From: a virus
Lineage: Duplodnaviria; Heunggongvirae; Uroviricota; Caudoviricetes
Strand: one strand, 5' to 3'
DNA length: 25,327 nt
IMG/VR virus record: IMGVR_UViG_2526164664_000023
A program made the position numbers. Shown in pieces: positions 6,001 through 12,000 of this stretch (within the stretch, counting starts at the first letter, position 1; every line of letters begins with the position of its first letter).

Positions 6001-9000
6001 GCGCAATTTGCTGTGGCTAGCAGACAGTTCTGCTATGCACTTCTCTGCGGCATCGGCTCGATCTTTTTCACGCTGGAACATTTTGTGAGTGCGGTCTATA
6101 GCTTCGATTCGTGCCGCTGATGTCTTCTGCACGGCTTCAAGCTCAACACGCAGCTTCCCAACCGTAAGAGCAATATCCTCGTTCTTCTGGTCGCGGCGTT
6201 TGATGTATTGCTGGTTTCTTTCCCGTTCATCCAGTAGTGCCAGCACGGTTTCTGGCCCGGTCAGAAATTTGAAGGCGTTGAGCGCATCAATATCCACACC
6301 GTAATCCTTAAGTTCCTGTTCAGTTAACAAATCATCATCAACTGGCAACATTAACAGGCGTTCCATTGCCGGAATTGCACGCTCTGCCGCCTCACGCAGT
6401 GCCTGATAGTCAATCTTGCTCATTGGATGACTCCTTTACGAAGCTGTTCGGCGATATCTTCGAGAACGCCATCAGAGAATGAACGGTCAAAATCGCCTTC
6501 CGGCGCATTGGCCATAAACTCAGTAGAGGTAAGAATCATCCGGGCAATATCAGCGGCGTTCTTCGCAGTATCATCAATAAAACCAGCTTCCCAGGCAGCC
6601 AGCATTCTGTTCGCCACAAAGTAAGCGCCCTCCTTGCGTGCTTCAGTCTTCACTTCAGCCAGAAAAGCATCGGTGGCTGGGGTTTCAGTAATATCATCTT
6701 CCCATTCGCTAAACTCCTCACGACAAAAGTCATTAAATTCCTTCTCAGATTGCTTAAGCGAGGAATTTTCAGCAGCCATCTTCGCGCATTTAGCCTCAAG
6801 GTTATCAATCGTGATTCCAGCAGAACGACACTCCCGCAACGCCGTTTCTAGTTTTGATTCAAGTTCACCGAACTTACGGACAAGATATTCATCGTTTGTT
6901 TCGTCAACCTTTAAATCACTTGGGATGCATTTACCTTTCAGAAAACCATCCATCTCAATTAGTGTCATTTGTTTCATTTCTTCCCACTCCGCCACATCGC
7001 ATTCAGATATTTGTTGTCATTAACAGAACCGAAACTCTTTCTCTTAAGCAATTCCTCTCTCGATGGCATTGGCTTTGCGCGTTGGCGAATAATCATTTCT
7101 GCCGGAAGAATGCCGGGATTGTATGCAAGTCCTCTCATGGTAAATTCCTCAGTCATTACTGATAGCGCCATAGCGTGAGCGGTAATTACGCAGGCGCGGG
7201 TCAATTTCAGGGAAGTGGGTATATGTGGCTTTGCGGAATGGTCGGATTGATGTCTGGTAAATTCGCTCGCGTTCTTCTTTCTCTGCAAGCCATATACAAT
7301 GGCGAAATTCCTTTTCCTCTTTCGTTTCCTGCGGTAGCGACATTATCCGATCGTAGTTTTTTCTGAATTTATCCAGCACCTCCGATACGGAATTGCCGGA
7401 ACAGCGGCGCGCGTCATCCGCACCATACAGAGGCGCTGGCATAATTAAATCCTTATTTTTCTAAATCAGAATGGGATGGAATCGTCGTATACAGGAGTGT
7501 TCTGCTGGTTACTACTTTGCTGCTGCGGGCCATTTCCTGAAGCTGCAAATCCAATCTTTGCATTCAGTAATTCAAGAGTGATTGATTGACCATTTTGCCC
7601 CTGATAAACATCAACCCTGATGTTTTCTCCGGTAATTTCCACAATGCCACCTTCAACAAGAACACTACGGTAGTAATCCGCTTGCGCTCCCGGCTTGGCA
7701 AATACAACGGCGCTGTAGTTTGTCCATTCTTTCTTTTTTGTCTGGCGATCGTAATACTGAACGCCAGCACGGATGTTGAATCCGATATTTTCCCCGGTCT
7801 GAAACTCTCTTGCGGGCTTGTTTAGTCTTACAGTAATCGAATGTGCCATTAAGCAGCAGCTCCTTCTAATTCGTCTCGTCTGATGTTGTAAACGTCCTGC
7901 GCTTTGTGCTGCTCCGGTGTGCCTTCGAGCATCTTCCACGCTTTGGCGAACGCCTGTTTAAGCTCTTCTACGGTGTTTTTCTGCATTGCTGCGTCAGTGA
8001 ATGCTTTTAGAACCTGTTCAGGTGTAGGTGATGGTTTTGATTGCTTTGCTGCTGCGTTCTGCTGATGTTTATGCTCGTCGGTATCTGCATCTTTCGCATC
8101 ATCAATGCCGAATAAACCATTGAGGCAATACTTGCGTGCATAAGAGCTTGTAGCTCCCGTAACTTGTGCAGAATCCATTCCTTTCTTGCTTTCTTCCTCT
8201 CGTGCAAGAGCGGTTGCCGTATGACTGTTTTCGCCATCGGTAATAGTTGCCGTGGCTTTCACATAATACCGATCACCAATCAACACAACTTCATCGCTGA
8301 TTGATAAAAACAGGCCATTCAGTAACGGCTTAACGCCTTCAAGAATATCTTCGCAGCTTCTGTATTTATATTTGCCGAATGAGTTGTACTGATTCTTTGG
8401 CGCGTTCAGATTCTCCTGAATAGCTGCCAGTCTTGCGTAAAATTCTTTGCTCATATGATTGTTCTCAGAATGGACACGGCCCAAGGAAATAACGCTGATT
8501 TAATACTTCGACTCGGGACAAATTAAGGCATACCCGCATTCCTTCGCGGTCACCATTATGGCGATACCAGAGAGCTTTCTGCGTGTACATGCGCCTCTGT
8601 AACTTGCTCTCCTTCACTGTGGTTGCAAGTGACATGAATATCTCCTTCGTTACCGATTAATTCTTTCATCTGACGAATGAATTCTTCGTCTGACCAGTTA
8701 TCTGTAAAACTCATTTCCTGCGATAACACGGAAGGTTGATAGCTGATTTCATCGCTTTATTTGCTTCAAGCCACATTTTTGAATCACCAATAAATCGGGC
8801 TATTACTGCCTTGTTCTGTGCAGCACGAAGCATCTGGTGATTGATGGCTATTTCATTGCGCATAATAAGACCTCAACTCTTTTCCATCCGTCACGTAATT
8901 TACGGGTGATTCGTTCAAGTAAAGATTCATTTAATTGGAAGGCACCCATGCGAGCGCCTCCCGCGATTGCGTAAATCATGGGTGGTTCCTTATGTTGGTT

Positions 9001-12000
9001 TTATTAGTAGGTTATTTTTGTTGCGAATAATTCGCCTTTTACGATGGCTGTTATGATATTTTTAGCAACATCTTCTGATGCGCCAACCTTGATAAGGTCA
9101 GCAAGTATTTTGTTATTTACTTCTTTCCGGTGAGCTTTATCCTTTGCTCTACGCTCTTCTTCGTCCTTGATTCTTTTTCTTCTGCTATTCTGGCTTGCTC
9201 TTTTGCTTCAGCCTCGCGCAGGATTCGTTCTGCCTCCTCCTGTGCTTTACGGCGTTCTGCTTCAATTGCCGCATGCTTTTCTCTTTCAGCTCGTTCTGCT
9301 GCCTCTTTTGCTTCGCGCTGTGCTCGTTGCTCGGCTTCAATGCGTTCACGCTCTGCACGTTCCTCTGCGGCCTTAGCTTCTGCTTCTCGCCTTGCTGCTG
9401 CTTCAATTTCGGCTTTTGCCTTTGCTTCGGCTTCAGCTCTGGCTTTCTCTTCAGCTTCTCTTTTTAAGCGTTCTTCATGCTCTCGCTTTTCCTGCTCCGC
9501 TTTGAGTCTTGCCTCTTCTCTTTGGCGGTCAAATTCGCGATCCATCAAAATCGCTATTTCATGGTCAGACTCAATTTGCTTTGCGAGAGCTTCAGCTGCT
9601 GCCTTAGCTTCTTCTTCGGCTTTAATCCGCGCCTGTTCTTCCTCATAATCAGTAAGAGGCTGGCGCGCCTTGGCTTTCAGTTCATCAAGGCGATCGCGCA
9701 CTGTCTTGCGGTTAGCATCAATTAGCTTTGGAATTTCCTTCAGTTCAGCAACAAGGTCTTTGCCAAGACCATCGAGATATGTTTTCGTCTGCGCAACTTT
9801 ATACGCCAGATAAGCGATCTCCTTTCTGCCCTTTGCCGTTGTGATATCAGGCACAAAGGACATAACTTCACGTTCAACCTTTTGAAGAATTTCTTCAATC
9901 TGGTCGGCAGACTAAATTACAGTCATTGCATTTGCTTTTTCAATAACAACTAAATCTGTTACTTCACTCATATATCCTCCGTCAAAAAATTGCCCTCACA
10001 CTGGAGGGCAAAGAAGATTTCCAATAATCAGAACAAGTCGGCTCCTGTTTAGTTACGAGCGACATTGCTCCGTGTATTCACTCGTTGGAATGAATACACA
10101 GTGCAGTGTTTATTCGTATGCCTGTCTTTTAACCACATCAGGCTCGGTGGTTCTCGTGTACCCCTACAGCGAGAAATCGGATAAACTCTATTCACCCCTA
10201 CAGAGAGAATGATGGAGATTCACCGATGAGTAACTGGTGGCAGGAACTATTACGTTTCTTCCTGCGTGGTCTTACGCTACAACAGTTAATTCATATGCTT
10301 ATTATTTTAATTGCCTTGATAATAATCACCCCAGCATCAATTAAAGAGTGGGTAGATATAAGGAACCCCGAAATACTTCCAGATCACTGGATGTATTACG
10401 CAATGCTTTTGTGTATCAGTTATGTTCTGAACAGGGGGATGGAGTTTATATTTCTGGCATCTTCAGACAGATATAAAAAATATCTCAGTAAGAGAGATGA
10501 GGCTAAAGTAATTGTGGAGACTGAGCGCCTATTCAATTCTCTGAGTATTCAGGAAAAAGAGGTTTTAGCATTTGCTGTTATGGCAAATAACAAAATCGTA
10601 CTTAAGCACGGCGATCCGGTCGCTTTATCTCTTATGAGAAAAGGCCTTCTCCATCGCTCAGGTGTGACTTACAGCGCGTCAGGTAAAGAGAAATTTGTTA
10701 TACCTGACGTCTGGTTCCATGAGTGTTATATGCGCTTTGCTGGTAAAGCTGATGAGCTAATTTAGTTCCTCTACGGCGGGGGGGATCGTCACCTCGCTGT
10801 CAGTTGTTTTGATTTCCGGTAGCCTGCCGCGTAAATGGCTACGTTTGGAAGACAAGTTGAACCTTCATATTTTCTGGTCAACGTTGTCAGAGTTATAACT
10901 TCTGCTCTCATTGCTGGTTTGCGCTTGCATTGCAAGACCACTCGTGAAGGGGTTGGCCTGTGTAGCTTGTCGGAGCTAATCGCCTCCTGACTTTGCAGGT
11001 TTGCGCGACGAGCTCTACGGCGAGAAGCTGCGGTGCCTTTAAATTCTGTTTTTCTGGACATAGATTCCTCCCGAATAAACTTTGGCGATGCAATCTCGAA
11101 GCTCCTCCTGAGACGGTTACTTCGGCATTGCATCCCACAGCTTATGTGGTTGGGTGATCTGGCTTTTCAGCCACGTAGTCGAGTGTTCGACGTTGTTTAA
11201 AGAGCCTGCCAGTCTGCTCCGTTTGGCTTACAGCGTCCTGCTGATGAGTTGACTTTATCGAAATGATAAACTGATGGCAATAGCAAAATGATAAATTGTT
11301 TGGGTTTTCAAATATCCTGTTGATTATTATGGTTTTTTATTTGATTGCGGGAATTTATCAGAAGGAATGAAGAGACTTGAGGGGGATCAGAATTTCGTGG
11401 TTTAGAAAGTTGTATCTATCAATTTTTCAATAAATACAATTGGTTAAGGTGTTATTAGGTGTGGGGATCGTGAGGCAAAGAAAACCCGGCGCTGAGGCCG
11501 GGTTCTGTCATCTAACTTAAGTATCAAGCCGCTTTTTGTGAATGATTGATGTGAGCTTCAAAGTCGCGGCGTAGATTTTGAACGCGCTCTACACATCCGC
11601 GCATTTCAGCCAAAAGCTTACTAACGGCAGTATAGTCAAACGCTTTAGTCATTTTTTTTCCCCTCGTTTAAATGTAAGGCTCAACATCAAGGGCTGCTAT
11701 TGCTGCGCACAATGCGTCAGGATCGTCAGCATCGATGGCTTGAGCCAGGTCATTAGCCAGTATAAGTAACTTATCGATGACAGCGATTTCGCTGGTCTTA
11801 TCTACACGAAAGTATGGGAGCAGAGCATTACATACGTCTCTGAATGTCCGTAATTCTGCGACAACGTTCGAAAAGGTAGGATCTTTCTTACGAAGATCCA
11901 CCAATGGCGCTACTTTAGCTGTTTTCAGCATTGCACTAATCTCGCCAATCATTGTTCCATGCAGACGATTAAATTCATCAACAGCTCGGTCATGCAAGCT

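What the first reader, a model, noticed from the sequence alone, without database searches (positions are those of the whole stretch)
9000..9863. Highly charged E/A/K/R-rich helical protein in the early-left operon, with a C-terminal segment in another frame
The 248-aa ORF has a 70-aa N-terminal domain followed by about 170 residues of E/A/K/R repeats (AEAKAKAEIEAAARREAEAKAAEERAERER...), typical of a single-alpha-helix or TolA-like spacer. A 38-codon ORF-like segment continues past its stop in the adjacent frame, consistent with a 1-nt deletion. It occupies the cIII-to-N interval where lambda carries ea10 and ral, a region that often holds anti-restriction or host-takeover genes. I cannot place the family. 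The low-complexity DNA generates several spurious ORFs on both strands.
Basis: partly seen in the sequence, partly recalled or inferred. Interest (0 to 1): 0.55.

Follow-up and report, generated by a model that had tools for sequence, protein, structure and literature searches.

The report
Broken phage recombination-module accessory gene
The 248-codon reading frame is the middle of a 322-codon prophage gene (the family of Shigella phage Sf6 gene 33 and phage phi80 agt/mog) that this prophage has lost to a stop codon and a one-base deletion; it is an ordinary decaying gene, but its intact relatives form a very large, unstudied family that sits beside phage recombination genes.

Summary
The ORF at 9117..9863 (-) exists, but it is a fragment. 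The real gene spans 9004..9971 (-) and matches a 322-aa gene in Sf6 (gene 33), mEp043 and about 10% of complete E. coli genomes.

The window copy has two lesions. One is a CAG>TAG nonsense at codon 20 (9912-9914), found in 111 complete E. coli records.

The frame after the deletion encodes a conserved C-terminal domain, and intact alleles are under purifying selection (dN/dS 0.13).

The 'TolA' label in databases reflects amino-acid composition only: the TolA model scores 9 bits against a cut-off of 59, and there is no membrane anchor.

phi80 agt ('anti-toxin for Gam', Mog) is a full-length homologue at 51% identity.

The family has at least 4,957 clusters, no Pfam model and no structural relative. 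It has a conserved N domain, a charged helix of variable length (predicted hairpin) and a conserved C domain.

In 30 species-distinct loci, 20 strand-annealing genes (RecT, ERF, Sak4, Rad52) lie within 2.5 kb, but GamL in only one.

The intact protein is most likely a recombination-module accessory. This copy is dead.

The parts
9004..9971 (-). Whole disrupted gene: homologue of Sf6 gene 33 / mEp043 'TolA' / phi80 agt (mog). It is 968 nt, against 969 nt in intact alleles.
   Evidence: Alignment with Sf6, mEp043 and an Stx1a phage, mean column identity 99%. PHROG 1376 hit at 1e-63 for the ORF and 8e-12 for the displaced tail. PGAP calls the O26:H11 11368 copy a pseudogene with 'internal stop'.
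9976..9980 (-). Shine-Dalgarno GGAGG, 4 nt upstream of the true ATG (9971-9969).
   Evidence: Read directly from the sequence. It is conserved in all four aligned phages.
9912..9914 (-). In-frame TAG nonsense codon at codon 20 (CAG in intact alleles). The adjacent codon 19 is changed from TTT to ATT.
   Evidence: The exact 61-nt allele is present in 111 complete E. coli records, in 4 Stx1a-converting phages and in 3 of 80 IMG/VR relatives.
9117..9863 (-). It starts at internal Met37, and its last 18 codons are out of frame.
9174..9178 (-). A5 run (A6 in intact alleles): site of the 1-nt deletion that shifts the frame.
   Evidence: alignment column 809. The A5 allele is absent from all but one complete E. 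coli genome. That genome is APEC IMT5155, which carries it on a different allelic background.
9627..9971 (-). Coding region of the conserved N-terminal domain (residues 1-115), with invariant R49, K63, G70, K78, D85, R88 and E110.
   Evidence: Alignments A3 and A4. phmmer finds 4,957 cluster representatives at E<=1e-3. dN/dS is 0.06.
9133..9626 (-). Coding region of the E/A/R/K-rich helix (residues 116-280), whose length varies between alleles (245-333 aa proteins).
   Evidence: The AlphaFold2 model has helices 46-172 and 183-295.
9004..9132 (-). Coding region of the conserved C-terminal domain (HRKEVNNKILADLIKVGASEDVAKNIITAIVKGExFATKITY) plus the TAA stop (9004-9006). In the window it is out of frame with the upstream part.
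   Evidence: 113 of 144 family representatives end in [IVLMA]x[YFW]. pLDDT is 90-97.
9990..10011 (-). Intrinsic terminator (TTGCCCTCCAGTGTGAGGGCAA followed by TTTTTT) just upstream of the gene. Sf6 annotates the equivalent site as tL2A.
7849..8484 (-). ERF-family strand-annealing protein gene, 520 nt downstream in the same operon. This is the family's usual partner.
   Evidence: Pfam ERF, 2.4e-44.
7149..7442 (-). Abc2-type anti-RecBCD gene of the same recombination module.
   Evidence: Pfam Anti-RecBCD_p2, 5.6e-63.
8711..8979 (-). cIII (8848..8979) and kil (8711..8863), which lie between the disrupted gene and erf.
   Evidence: Pfam Lambda_CIII 4e-15 and Lambda_Kil 1.7e-20.

Best explanation
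Shown:
- The feature is a decayed copy of a conserved 322-codon delayed-early gene of lambdoid/P22-like phages (Sf6 gene 33 = D3 orf53 = phi80 agt/mog = PHROG 1376).
- In this prophage it carries two lesions. A nonsense codon at codon 20 is inherited by a whole clade of EHEC-type prophages. A -1 frameshift in an A6 run cuts off the conserved C-terminal domain.
- The 248-aa ORF is what remains between those two lesions.

Inferred:
- No functional product is made here. At best there is a weakly initiated fragment that lacks residues 1-36 and the C-terminal domain.

Intact protein:
- It is a soluble, slightly acidic cytoplasmic protein (shown).
- Its small conserved N-terminal and C-terminal domains are predicted to pack together at one end of a long E/A/R/K helix that folds back on itself. 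The length of that helix drifts through in-frame indels.
- The gene is transcribed from pL only after N-mediated read-through of the terminator immediately upstream (inferred from position).
- Across Proteobacteria and beyond it sits next to the phage strand-annealing gene, whichever of the four SSAP families that is (shown).
- I therefore infer that it is an accessory subunit or regulator of the phage recombination module. Most likely it is an elongated adaptor that binds a partner acting at DNA ends (the SSAP, its SSB, an anti-nuclease such as GamL or Abc2, or host RecBCD/SbcCD) and tempers or positions it.
- The only functional label for any member fits this: phi80 agt is annotated as relieving the toxicity of the RecBCD/SbcCD inhibitor GamL.
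- The partner and the biochemical activity are not established.
For: Identity and lesions:
- (alignment).
- 35 phage records and 496 of 5,426 complete E. coli genomes carry at least 80% of the gene; 530 genomes have any match.
- PGAP annotates the O26:H11 copy as a pseudogene with an internal stop.
- 76 of 80 close relatives are intact at 322 aa.
- dN/dS 0.06 / 0.18 / 0.31 for the N domain, coil and C domain.
- the TAG allele is in 111 records.
- the same A-run deletion, with a different nonsense codon, arose in APEC IMT5155.

Family and architecture:
- 4,957 representatives.
- conserved N and C domains.
- 113 of 144 representatives keep the C-terminal motif.
- pLDDT 86, helices 46-172 and 183-295, C-terminus pLDDT 90-97.
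- no transmembrane segment; pI 5.5.

Link to phi80 agt:
- 51% identity over the full length, E 2e-63; hhalign probability 100%.

Link to recombination genes:
- (metagenomic contexts).
- (phages D3, Klebsiella phi6.1, Yersinia 29.18, phiPSA1, Eta).
- in 30 loci from 30 species there are 20 SSAP hits (RecT 9, ERF 5, Sak4 4, Rad52 2), plus SSB 7, DUF3799 6, YqaJ 2 and 8 hits to three 3'-5' exonuclease-type families, all within 2.5 kb on the same strand. The SSAP is usually the next sizeable gene.
- ERF and Abc2 lie downstream in the window.

Expression signals:
- terminator; Shine-Dalgarno.
Against: - Function rests on gene neighbourhood plus one GenBank note. The source paper (Rotman et al. 2012, PMC3510586) could not be read.
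- A 2025 survey of 325 lambdoid Rec modules does not list this gene as a module member.
- In the window and in Sf6 the gene is separated from erf by cIII, kil and small ORFs.
- Up to a third of the 30 loci showed no recognisable SSAP nearby, and some of those loci are truncated.
- The hairpin comes from an AlphaFold2 monomer model with pTM 0.34. The composition fits a single extended ER/K helix equally well.
- The frameshift could be a homopolymer sequencing error in a draft assembly. That would leave only the nonsense codon as a lesion.
- Phages carrying the TAG allele are deposited as complete Stx1a-converting phage genomes. So the gene is dispensable, or a restart product suffices.
Confidence: 0.8

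Rival explanations
1. Only the nonsense codon is real. The A6>A5 'deletion' is a homopolymer sequencing or assembly error in the draft genome the window comes from.
For: - The window is identical to draft contig AIGS01000008.1 of GCA_000250055.2.
- The exact 248-aa product is on record only there and in one Logan assembly of an early SRA run, which may be the same strain's reads.
- None of the 111 complete genomes with the same TAG allele has A5. The best whole-gene hits are 99.9% identical with one gap.
Against: - Two assemblies made with different software agree.
- An A5 allele is also present in a finished genome, APEC IMT5155, on a different background, and PGAP accepts it as 'frameshifted'.
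- A 5-6 nt run is short for a consensus error.
Confidence: 0.3
2. The 248-aa ORF is a genuine, functional shorter protein, started at Met37 and ended at 9117.
For: - The ORF is open and begins with ATG.
- TAG-allele prophages are otherwise intact across 111 genomes.
- Some of these are recorded as complete Stx1a phage genomes.
Against: - There is no good Shine-Dalgarno before 9863, while the real start at 9971 has GGAGG.
- The product would lack residues 1-36 of a domain with dN/dS 0.06.
- It would also lack the whole C-terminal domain that 113 of 144 family representatives keep.
- Its last 18 residues are frame-shifted sequence.
- PGAP calls equivalent copies pseudogenes.
Confidence: 0.07
3. 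The intact family is a dedicated antitoxin or modifier of the Gam-like RecBCD/SbcCD inhibitor, as the phi80 record says, and nothing more general.
For: - The phi80 annotation reads: agt 'anti-toxin for Gam; Mog (modifier of Gam)', gamL 'toxic without Mog'.
- The order X then GamL is seen in phi80, in a Klebsiella phage and in locus L113.
Against: - GamL is present in only 1 of 30 species-distinct loci and Abc2 in 2 of 30, whereas SSAPs account for 20 hits.
- D3, phiPSA1, Eta and the metagenomic loci have the gene without any annotated Gam.
- The window's phage uses Abc2, not GamL.
Confidence: 0.1
4. The intact protein is an anti-restriction, anti-defence or host-takeover factor unrelated to recombination.
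For: - It lies in the accessory part of the pL operon, near ral in Sf6 and sieB here.
- It is a long helical acidic protein.
- It is dispensable and is often lost.
Against: - There is no PADLOC or anti-defence family hit above noise.
- Across distant taxa the conserved neighbours are SSAP, exonuclease and SSB genes, not ral-type or methylase-type genes specifically.
- The helix is close to charge-neutral, unlike DNA mimics.
Confidence: 0.12
5. It is a TolA-like cell-envelope or colicin-import protein, as most database records name it.
For: PGAP and other annotations read 'cell envelope biogenesis protein TolA' or 'colicin import membrane protein'.
Against: - TIGR02794 tolA_full scores 9.2 bits against a cut-off of 59.45.
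- There is no Pfam hit at all.
- There is no transmembrane segment: the best 19-aa hydropathy window is 1.03.
- The only overlap with the model lies in the Ala/Glu/Lys-rich region.
Confidence: 0.02
6. The frame break is a programmed ribosomal frameshift site.
For: The break lies in an A-run, and Lys-tRNA slips on such runs.
Against: - 76 of 80 close relatives, and all but one of the 512 complete-genome records that match the site, are in frame with A6.
- The A6 run is not in the X XXY YYZ phase.
- The two A5 copies each also carry a nonsense codon.
Confidence: 0.02

Closest known systems
Phage phi80 (Lula) agt / Mog, PHI80_40, AFV29176.1, 'anti-toxin for Gam' (Rotman et al. 2012, as annotated in JX871397)
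   Same: - Same family over the full length: 322 aa, 51% identity, E 2e-63, with N domain, charged helix and C-terminal ...I.Y domain all aligned.
- Same place in the pL operon, at the upstream edge of the recombination genes.
   Different: - The phi80 copy is intact and is followed directly by gamL-recT-exo.
- The window copy is broken and is followed by cIII-kil-erf-...-abc2, with no GamL.
- The anti-Gam-toxicity label is known to me only from the GenBank note; the paper could not be read.
Shigella phage Sf6 gene 33 (NP_958209), Pseudomonas phage D3 orf53, and PHROG 1376 (unknown function)
   Same: - Sf6 gene 33 is 98% identical in DNA and syntenic with the window: terminator, then gene 33, cIII, kil and erf.
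- D3 orf53 shares the N domain (55% identity) and directly precedes ERF and a YqaJ exonuclease.
   Different: Those copies are intact. None has a tested function.
DUF1351 (PF07083), with Sipho_Gp157, DUF2483 and Mu-Gam-like genes, which sit upstream of erf/sak4/recT in Firmicutes phages (PMC8093625)
   Same: - Same position, immediately upstream of strand-annealing genes of several families.
- Similar size and helical character.
- A weak shared local motif: GKxLxAxxKxxxKxLDxxR.
   Different: - Homology is not demonstrable. No Pfam hit was found for the 40 members tested.
- hhalign gives probability 0.9%, E 0.06.
- DUF1351 lacks the long charged helix and the ...I.Y C-terminal domain.
TolA (TIGR02794), domain II
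   Same: An Ala/Glu/Lys-rich helical spacer of variable length. This is the reason for the database name.
   Different: No N-terminal membrane anchor, no TolA domain III, and the model score is far below its cut-off. It is a cytoplasmic phage protein.
ER/K single alpha-helix (SAH) spacers; SMC/Rad50-type antiparallel coiled-coil hairpins whose heads are formed by the N and C termini
   Same: - Composition and i/i+4 charge pattern match ER/K helices.
- The predicted fold-back brings the N- and C-terminal domains together, as in SMC/Rad50 topology.
   Different: - There is no ABC ATPase head and no hook or hinge motif.
- The data here cannot decide between a hairpin and an extended helix.

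Membership tests
Agt/Mog - Sf6 gp33 - D3 Orf53 family (PHROG 1376) | N-terminal ~115-aa domain with the motif F.PD.ST.KGRK.IAS.A.KVA.SKTYLD..GK and invariant R49, K63, G70, K78, D85, R88 and E110. | tested here: met
   The window codes for residues 1-115 at near-identity to Sf6 and mEp043 apart from I19 and the stop at codon 20. PHROG 1376 hit at 1e-63. Family conservation is shown.
Agt/Mog - Sf6 gp33 - D3 Orf53 family (PHROG 1376) | C-terminal ~42-aa domain HR..IN..(x)..G..E..AK....AI..G.I....I.Y. 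| tested here: met
   The domain is present at 9007-9132 but out of frame. The PHROG 1376 tail matches at 8e-12.
Agt/Mog - Sf6 gp33 - D3 Orf53 family (PHROG 1376) | One uninterrupted reading frame of about 245-430 codons joining both domains through a charged helix. | tested here: not met
   There is a TAG at codon 20 and a -1 frameshift at 9174-9178. The copy is therefore a pseudogene of the family, not a functional member.
Agt/Mog - Sf6 gp33 - D3 Orf53 family (PHROG 1376) | Location in a phage early operon next to strand-annealing and exonuclease genes. | tested here: met
   ERF lies 520 nt downstream and Abc2 further on. The family-wide pattern is shown.
Agt/Mog - Sf6 gp33 - D3 Orf53 family (PHROG 1376) | Relief of GamL toxicity (the phi80 phenotype). 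| not testable with these tools
   Only the GenBank note is available. The window phage has no GamL.
TolA (TIGR02794 / cell envelope integrity protein) | Score at or above the curated cut-off of the full-length TolA model. | tested here: not met
   9.2 bits against a cut-off of 59.45, E 0.62.
TolA (TIGR02794 / cell envelope integrity protein) | N-terminal transmembrane anchor (domain I). | tested here: not met
   The highest 19-aa Kyte-Doolittle window is 1.03, and it lies in the C-terminal domain. 123 of 128 family representatives have no window above 1.6.
TolA (TIGR02794 / cell envelope integrity protein) | C-terminal TolA domain III. | tested here: not met
   No Pfam family hit for the intact protein or for 40 relatives.
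DUF1351 (PF07083) | Match to the Pfam model. | tested here: not met
   No hit at E<=10 for the intact protein or its N domain, and none for 40 relatives at E<=0.01. A true member scores 67 bits.
DUF1351 (PF07083) | Profile-profile similarity to a DUF1351 alignment. | tested here: inconclusive
   hhalign of A4 against A5 gives probability 0.9%, E 0.063, over 53 columns covering a plausible motif. The A5 profile is narrow, being built from Enterococcus phages only.
DUF1351 (PF07083) | Gene position immediately upstream of erf / sak4 / recT. | tested here: met
   (literature).
ER/K single alpha-helix domain | More than 70% E/R/K/A content with dense i/i+4 opposite charges and no hydrophobic heptad. 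| tested here: met
   78% E+A+R+K. 59 i/i+4 pairs in 175 residues. Periodicity power below 1 at 3.5-3.7.
ER/K single alpha-helix domain | Monomeric, extended and stable as an isolated helix in solution. | not testable with these tools
   AlphaFold2 instead predicts a fold-back at residues 173-182. This needs CD, SAXS or EM.

The most novel reading that the evidence does not exclude
The Agt/gp33/Orf53 family is a so-far unrecognised, widespread component of phage homologous-recombination modules. It has at least 4,957 clusters at 50% identity, no Pfam model and no structural relative. It accompanies all four strand-annealing protein superfamilies (RecT, ERF, Sak4, Rad52). It would act as an elongated helical adaptor that controls what happens at DNA ends, for example by restraining anti-nuclease proteins or tethering the annealing machinery. 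It could be the Proteobacterial counterpart of DUF1351 and Gp157 in Firmicutes phages.
Probability: 0.45. Interest if true: 0.55.

Novelty: already known. Interest (0 to 1): 0.3.

Why it matters
This window adds only one point: an annotated-looking 248-aa 'protein' is the stump of a dead gene, and the 'TolA' name carried by hundreds of records is a composition artefact.

The family behind it is more useful. It is one of the larger phage protein families with no curated model and no tested function. Here it shows a consistent association with recombination genes, and a recent 325-phage survey of lambdoid Rec modules did not include it. If it does modulate strand-annealing or anti-RecBCD/SbcCD proteins, it is relevant to two things: recombineering systems built from these modules, and how phages balance end protection against toxicity to the host.

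Tried and rejected
- **TolA membership.** Rejected.
- **DUF1351 homology.** I fetched a true member from Enterococcus phage LG62 and built a profile. hhalign gave E 0.06-0.13, so homology is not supported.
- **Curated families.** Pfam, NCBIfam and PADLOC gave nothing significant.
- **Sequence search of the PDB.** Only coiled-coil or low-complexity noise.
- **Structure searches.**
  - BFVD returned only unnamed family members.
  - Foldseek against the PDB gave nothing below E=1.
  - The afdb50 library was unavailable.
- **Word-indexed homologue search with the N domain.** It returned mostly fragments.
- **First viral-contig scan.** It returned only near-identical E. coli copies. These were useful for intactness and dN/dS but not for distant context.
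- **Literature.**
  - Nothing was found on Sf6 gp33, PHROG 1376 or the accession numbers.
  - The phi80 genome paper is not held.
  - One search was wasted on 'GamL', which matched the statistics term GAMLSS.
  - The remaining 'GamL' hits refer to the long isoform of lambda Gam.
- **Tandem-repeat reading of the charged region.** Rejected; there is only a weak 6-nt periodicity.
- **DNA-mimic idea.** Set aside because the helix is nearly charge-balanced.

Full report
**1. What is at the coordinates**

The ORF listing finds the 248-aa ATG ORF at 9117..9863 on the minus strand. It also finds several long low-complexity ORFs on both strands over the same DNA. Translating the three minus-strand frames past the stop shows one open frame: EVNNKILADLIKVGASEDVAKNIITAIVKGELFATKITY**.

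**2. The ORF is a fragment of a longer, well-conserved gene**

- Megablast of 8980-9900 against phage genomes finds 37 records. 35 of them cover the region at 97-99.9% identity. They include Sf6 (gene 33), mEp043, mEp234, HK544, CUS-3, IME10 and four Stx1a-converting phages. Each hit is one base longer than the query.
- In Sf6 and mEp043 the annotated gene is 969 nt (322 aa). It lies between a terminator (tL2A) and cIII-kil-erf.
- The four-way alignment shows that the gene starts at ATG 9971-9969, behind GGAGG.
- The window and the Stx1a phages have TAG where Sf6 and mEp043 have CAG at codon 20 (window 9914-9912).
- The window alone lacks one A of an A6 run (window 9174-9178, T5 on the plus strand).
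- The reconstructed gene is therefore 9004..9971. The 248-aa ORF runs from internal Met37 to a stop created by the frameshift, and its last 18 residues are out of frame.
- The displaced C-terminal part is 56 codons.

**3. How common the lesions are**

- At least 80% of the gene is present in 496 of 5,426 complete E. coli genomes; 530 have any match. No copy is 100% identical to the window. The best are 99.9% with one gap.
- PGAP annotates the O26:H11 11368 copy as 'cell envelope biogenesis protein TolA', a pseudogene with an internal stop.
- A 61-nt probe over the TAG matches exactly in 111 records.
- A 61-nt probe over the A5 run matches exactly in one record, APEC IMT5155. That copy sits on a different allelic background, with about 20 SNPs. 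It has CAG at codon 20 but a different nonsense at codon 30, plus the same A6>A5 change, and PGAP calls it 'frameshifted; internal stop'. The A-run is therefore either a recurrent slippage site or a recurrent homopolymer miscall.
- The exact 248-aa product is on record only in the draft assembly GCA_000250055.2 (contig AIGS01000008.1), to which the window is identical, and in a Logan assembly of SRR094957. I cannot tell whether these two are independent.
- Of 80 close relatives in IMG/VR, 76 are intact at 322 aa, three carry the TAG allele and one has another frameshift.

**4. It is a real protein gene, including the downstream frame**

Among 71 distinct intact alleles, dN/dS is 0.06 for the N domain, 0.18 for the charged helix, 0.31 for the C domain and 0.13 overall. 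That condition is not met.

**5. What the protein looks like**

- Natural E. coli alleles range from 245 to 333 aa. The differences are in-frame deletions and duplications inside the charged region, while both ends stay constant.
- The DNA has scattered imperfect direct repeats, seven of the eight spacings multiples of three. It has no true tandem array.
- Residues 116-290 are 78% E/A/R/K. They have 59 opposite-charge i/i+4 pairs and no strong heptad signal.
- There is no transmembrane segment, and the pI is 5.5.
- A shallow-alignment AlphaFold2 model gave one continuous helix from residue 69 to 295, with poorly defined ends.
- With 114 diverse homologues the mean pLDDT rose to 86. The helix broke at residues 173-182 into two long helices (46-172 and 183-295), and the C-terminal 27 residues reached pLDDT 90-97.
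- I read this as a fold-back that brings the N and C domains together. It remains a monomer prediction with pTM 0.34, and an extended ER/K helix is not excluded.

**6. Family size and lack of a curated home**

- phmmer with the 118-aa N domain against 1.84 billion representatives gives 4,957 hits at E<=1e-3 and 3,439 at E<=1e-10. Typical length is about 330 aa.
- 113 of the 144 representatives newly returned by that search end with the C-terminal [IVLMA]x[YFW] motif.
- Invariant N-domain positions are R49, K63, G70, K78, D85, R88 and E110.
- None of 40 diverse members hits any Pfam family apart from two isolated single-member matches at E about 0.005. The intact protein has no significant Pfam, NCBIfam or PADLOC hit.
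- PHROGs places it in 1376, 21365 and 17211, all of unknown function.
- TolA is excluded. tolA_full scores 9.2 bits against a cut-off of 59.45, there is no membrane anchor and there is no domain III.

**7. The named relative**

- tblastn of an intact protein against phage genomes finds 148 records in phages of Pseudomonas, Vibrio, Klebsiella, Yersinia, Aeromonas and others.
- Among them, in phi80, is the gene agt: 'anti-toxin for Gam; Mog (modifier of Gam)'.
- phi80 Agt is 322 aa and 51% identical over its whole length (E 2e-63). It matches the family profile at probability 100%.
- Its neighbours are gamL ('host RecBCD/SbcCD enzymes inhibitor; toxic without Mog'), recT and exo.
- The source paper (Rotman et al. 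2012) is not in the library, so I have only the record's wording.

**8. Conserved neighbourhood**

Annotated phages:
- D3: orf53 | ERF | YqaJ exonuclease.
- Klebsiella phi6.1: X | GamL | Bet | Exo.
- Yersinia 29.18: X | cIII | two small genes | exonuclease VIII | RecT.
- phiPSA1: X | Sak4 | SSB | 3'-5' exonuclease.
- Serratia Eta: X | hypothetical | exonuclease VIII | small gene | Bet.

Metagenomic contigs:
- YqaJ | X | RNase_T.
- ERF | YqaJ | X.
- X | AAA_24.
- ERF, YqaJ ... DUF3127 | X.
- Two contexts were uninformative.

A scan of one genome per species returned 30 loci from 30 species. These span Enterobacterales, Aeromonas, Pseudomonas, Methylococcaceae, Chromatiaceae, Desulfobacteraceae, Pirellulaceae and Thalassospira. 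I took all 149 same-strand ORFs of at least 100 aa within 2.5 kb and scanned them against Pfam:

| Class | Family | Hits |
|---|---|---|
| Strand-annealing (20 in all) | RecT | 9 |
| Strand-annealing | ERF | 5 |
| Strand-annealing | AAA_24 (Sak4) | 4 |
| Strand-annealing | Rad52 | 2 |
| Single-strand binding | SSB | 7 |
| Exonuclease | DUF3799 | 6 |
| Exonuclease | YqaJ | 2 |
| 3'-5' exonuclease-type | three families | 8 |

- Local jackhmmer shows the annealing gene is usually the next sizeable gene downstream, 164-931 nt away. In Aeromonas-type loci the order is RecE-RecT-X.
- A 5-kb neighbourhood is about an eighth of a 40-kb phage, so 20 annealing-protein genes across 30 loci is far above chance. 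This is my estimate, not a formal test.
- GamL occurs in only 1 of 30 loci and Abc2 in 2 of 30.
- In the window the order is N, sieB (opposite strand), terminator, the broken gene, cIII, kil, ERF, a 157-aa ORF, then Abc2.

**9. Interpretation**

Shown:
- The window holds a pseudogene of this family.
- The family is large, conserved and cytoplasmic.
- It is not TolA.
- It is linked in position to strand-annealing genes of all four superfamilies.

Inferred:
- The intact protein is an accessory or regulator of the recombination module. It is probably an elongated adaptor that binds a partner acting at DNA ends.
- The phi80 label fits as one instance of this, but it cannot be the general role because GamL is rare among the neighbours.
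- The positional parallel with DUF1351, Gp157, DUF2483 and Mu-Gam-like genes upstream of SSAPs in Firmicutes phages (PMC8093625) is striking. Homology to DUF1351 was tested and is not supported.
- A 2025 survey of 325 lambdoid Rec modules does not mention this gene (PMC12315714). The association seems not to have been described there.

**10. Verdict**

The finding is a real sequence feature, but an ordinary one. It is a gene already annotated in relatives, and already flagged as a pseudogene by PGAP in sister genomes, caught here with two inactivating lesions. Interest in the window feature itself is low. The moderate interest lies in the uncharacterised family.

Noticed in passing
window 9174-9178; L136 (APEC IMT5155, NZ_CP005930.1 528376-529343): Two unrelated alleles of the gene each carry the same A6>A5 deletion together with a different N-terminal nonsense codon: codon 20 TAG in the window and codon 30 TAA in IMT5155. 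This could be independent decay at a slippage hotspot, a short gene-conversion tract, or repeated homopolymer miscalls. It is unresolved.
   Followed up: partly
window 3646-4802 (+): An IS3-family insertion sequence sits in the leftward early region of the prophage. orfA is 3646-3948 and orfB is 3984-4802 (rve 3e-26, HTH_21). It is another sign that this prophage is decaying.
   Followed up: partly
window 19284-20243 (-): A prophage-borne lpxR (lipid A deacylase, Pfam LpxR 6.8e-40) lies on the opposite strand in the nin-to-Q region. It is also present in the related O26:H11 prophage. It is a likely moron that affects LPS.
   Followed up: partly
window 1-2685: The prophage is integrated next to ybhC (1-1284), with int (1419-2489) and xis (2467-2685). 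This is the lambda attachment region, as in the related O26:H11 11368 prophage.
   Followed up: partly
window 7466-7939 (-): A 157-aa ORF between erf and abc2 occupies the slot that holds SSB in Sf6, but it has no Pfam hit. mEp043 has a 127-aa hypothetical gene in the same place.
   Followed up: no
family alignment A3, columns ~200-260 (e.g. P0207, P0211, P0221, P0228): Many distant family members carry an extra ~60-residue non-low-complexity insert (W.EF...A...K...L) straight after the N domain. The E. coli alleles lack it.
   Followed up: no
phage records CUS-3 (CP000711.1) and phiv205-1 (MN340231.1): In these phage records two 'hypothetical protein' features lie under the gene, and the CUS-3 match is 923 nt for a 921-nt query. 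This suggests further independently split copies.
   Followed up: no
L106 (JAFADF010000066.1, labelled 'Actinomycetes bacterium' MAG): A 3.9-kb contig in an Actinomycetes MAG carries a copy 99% identical to the E. coli gene, followed by Rad52-type and SSB genes. It is probably an enterobacterial phage contig mis-binned into the MAG.
   Followed up: no
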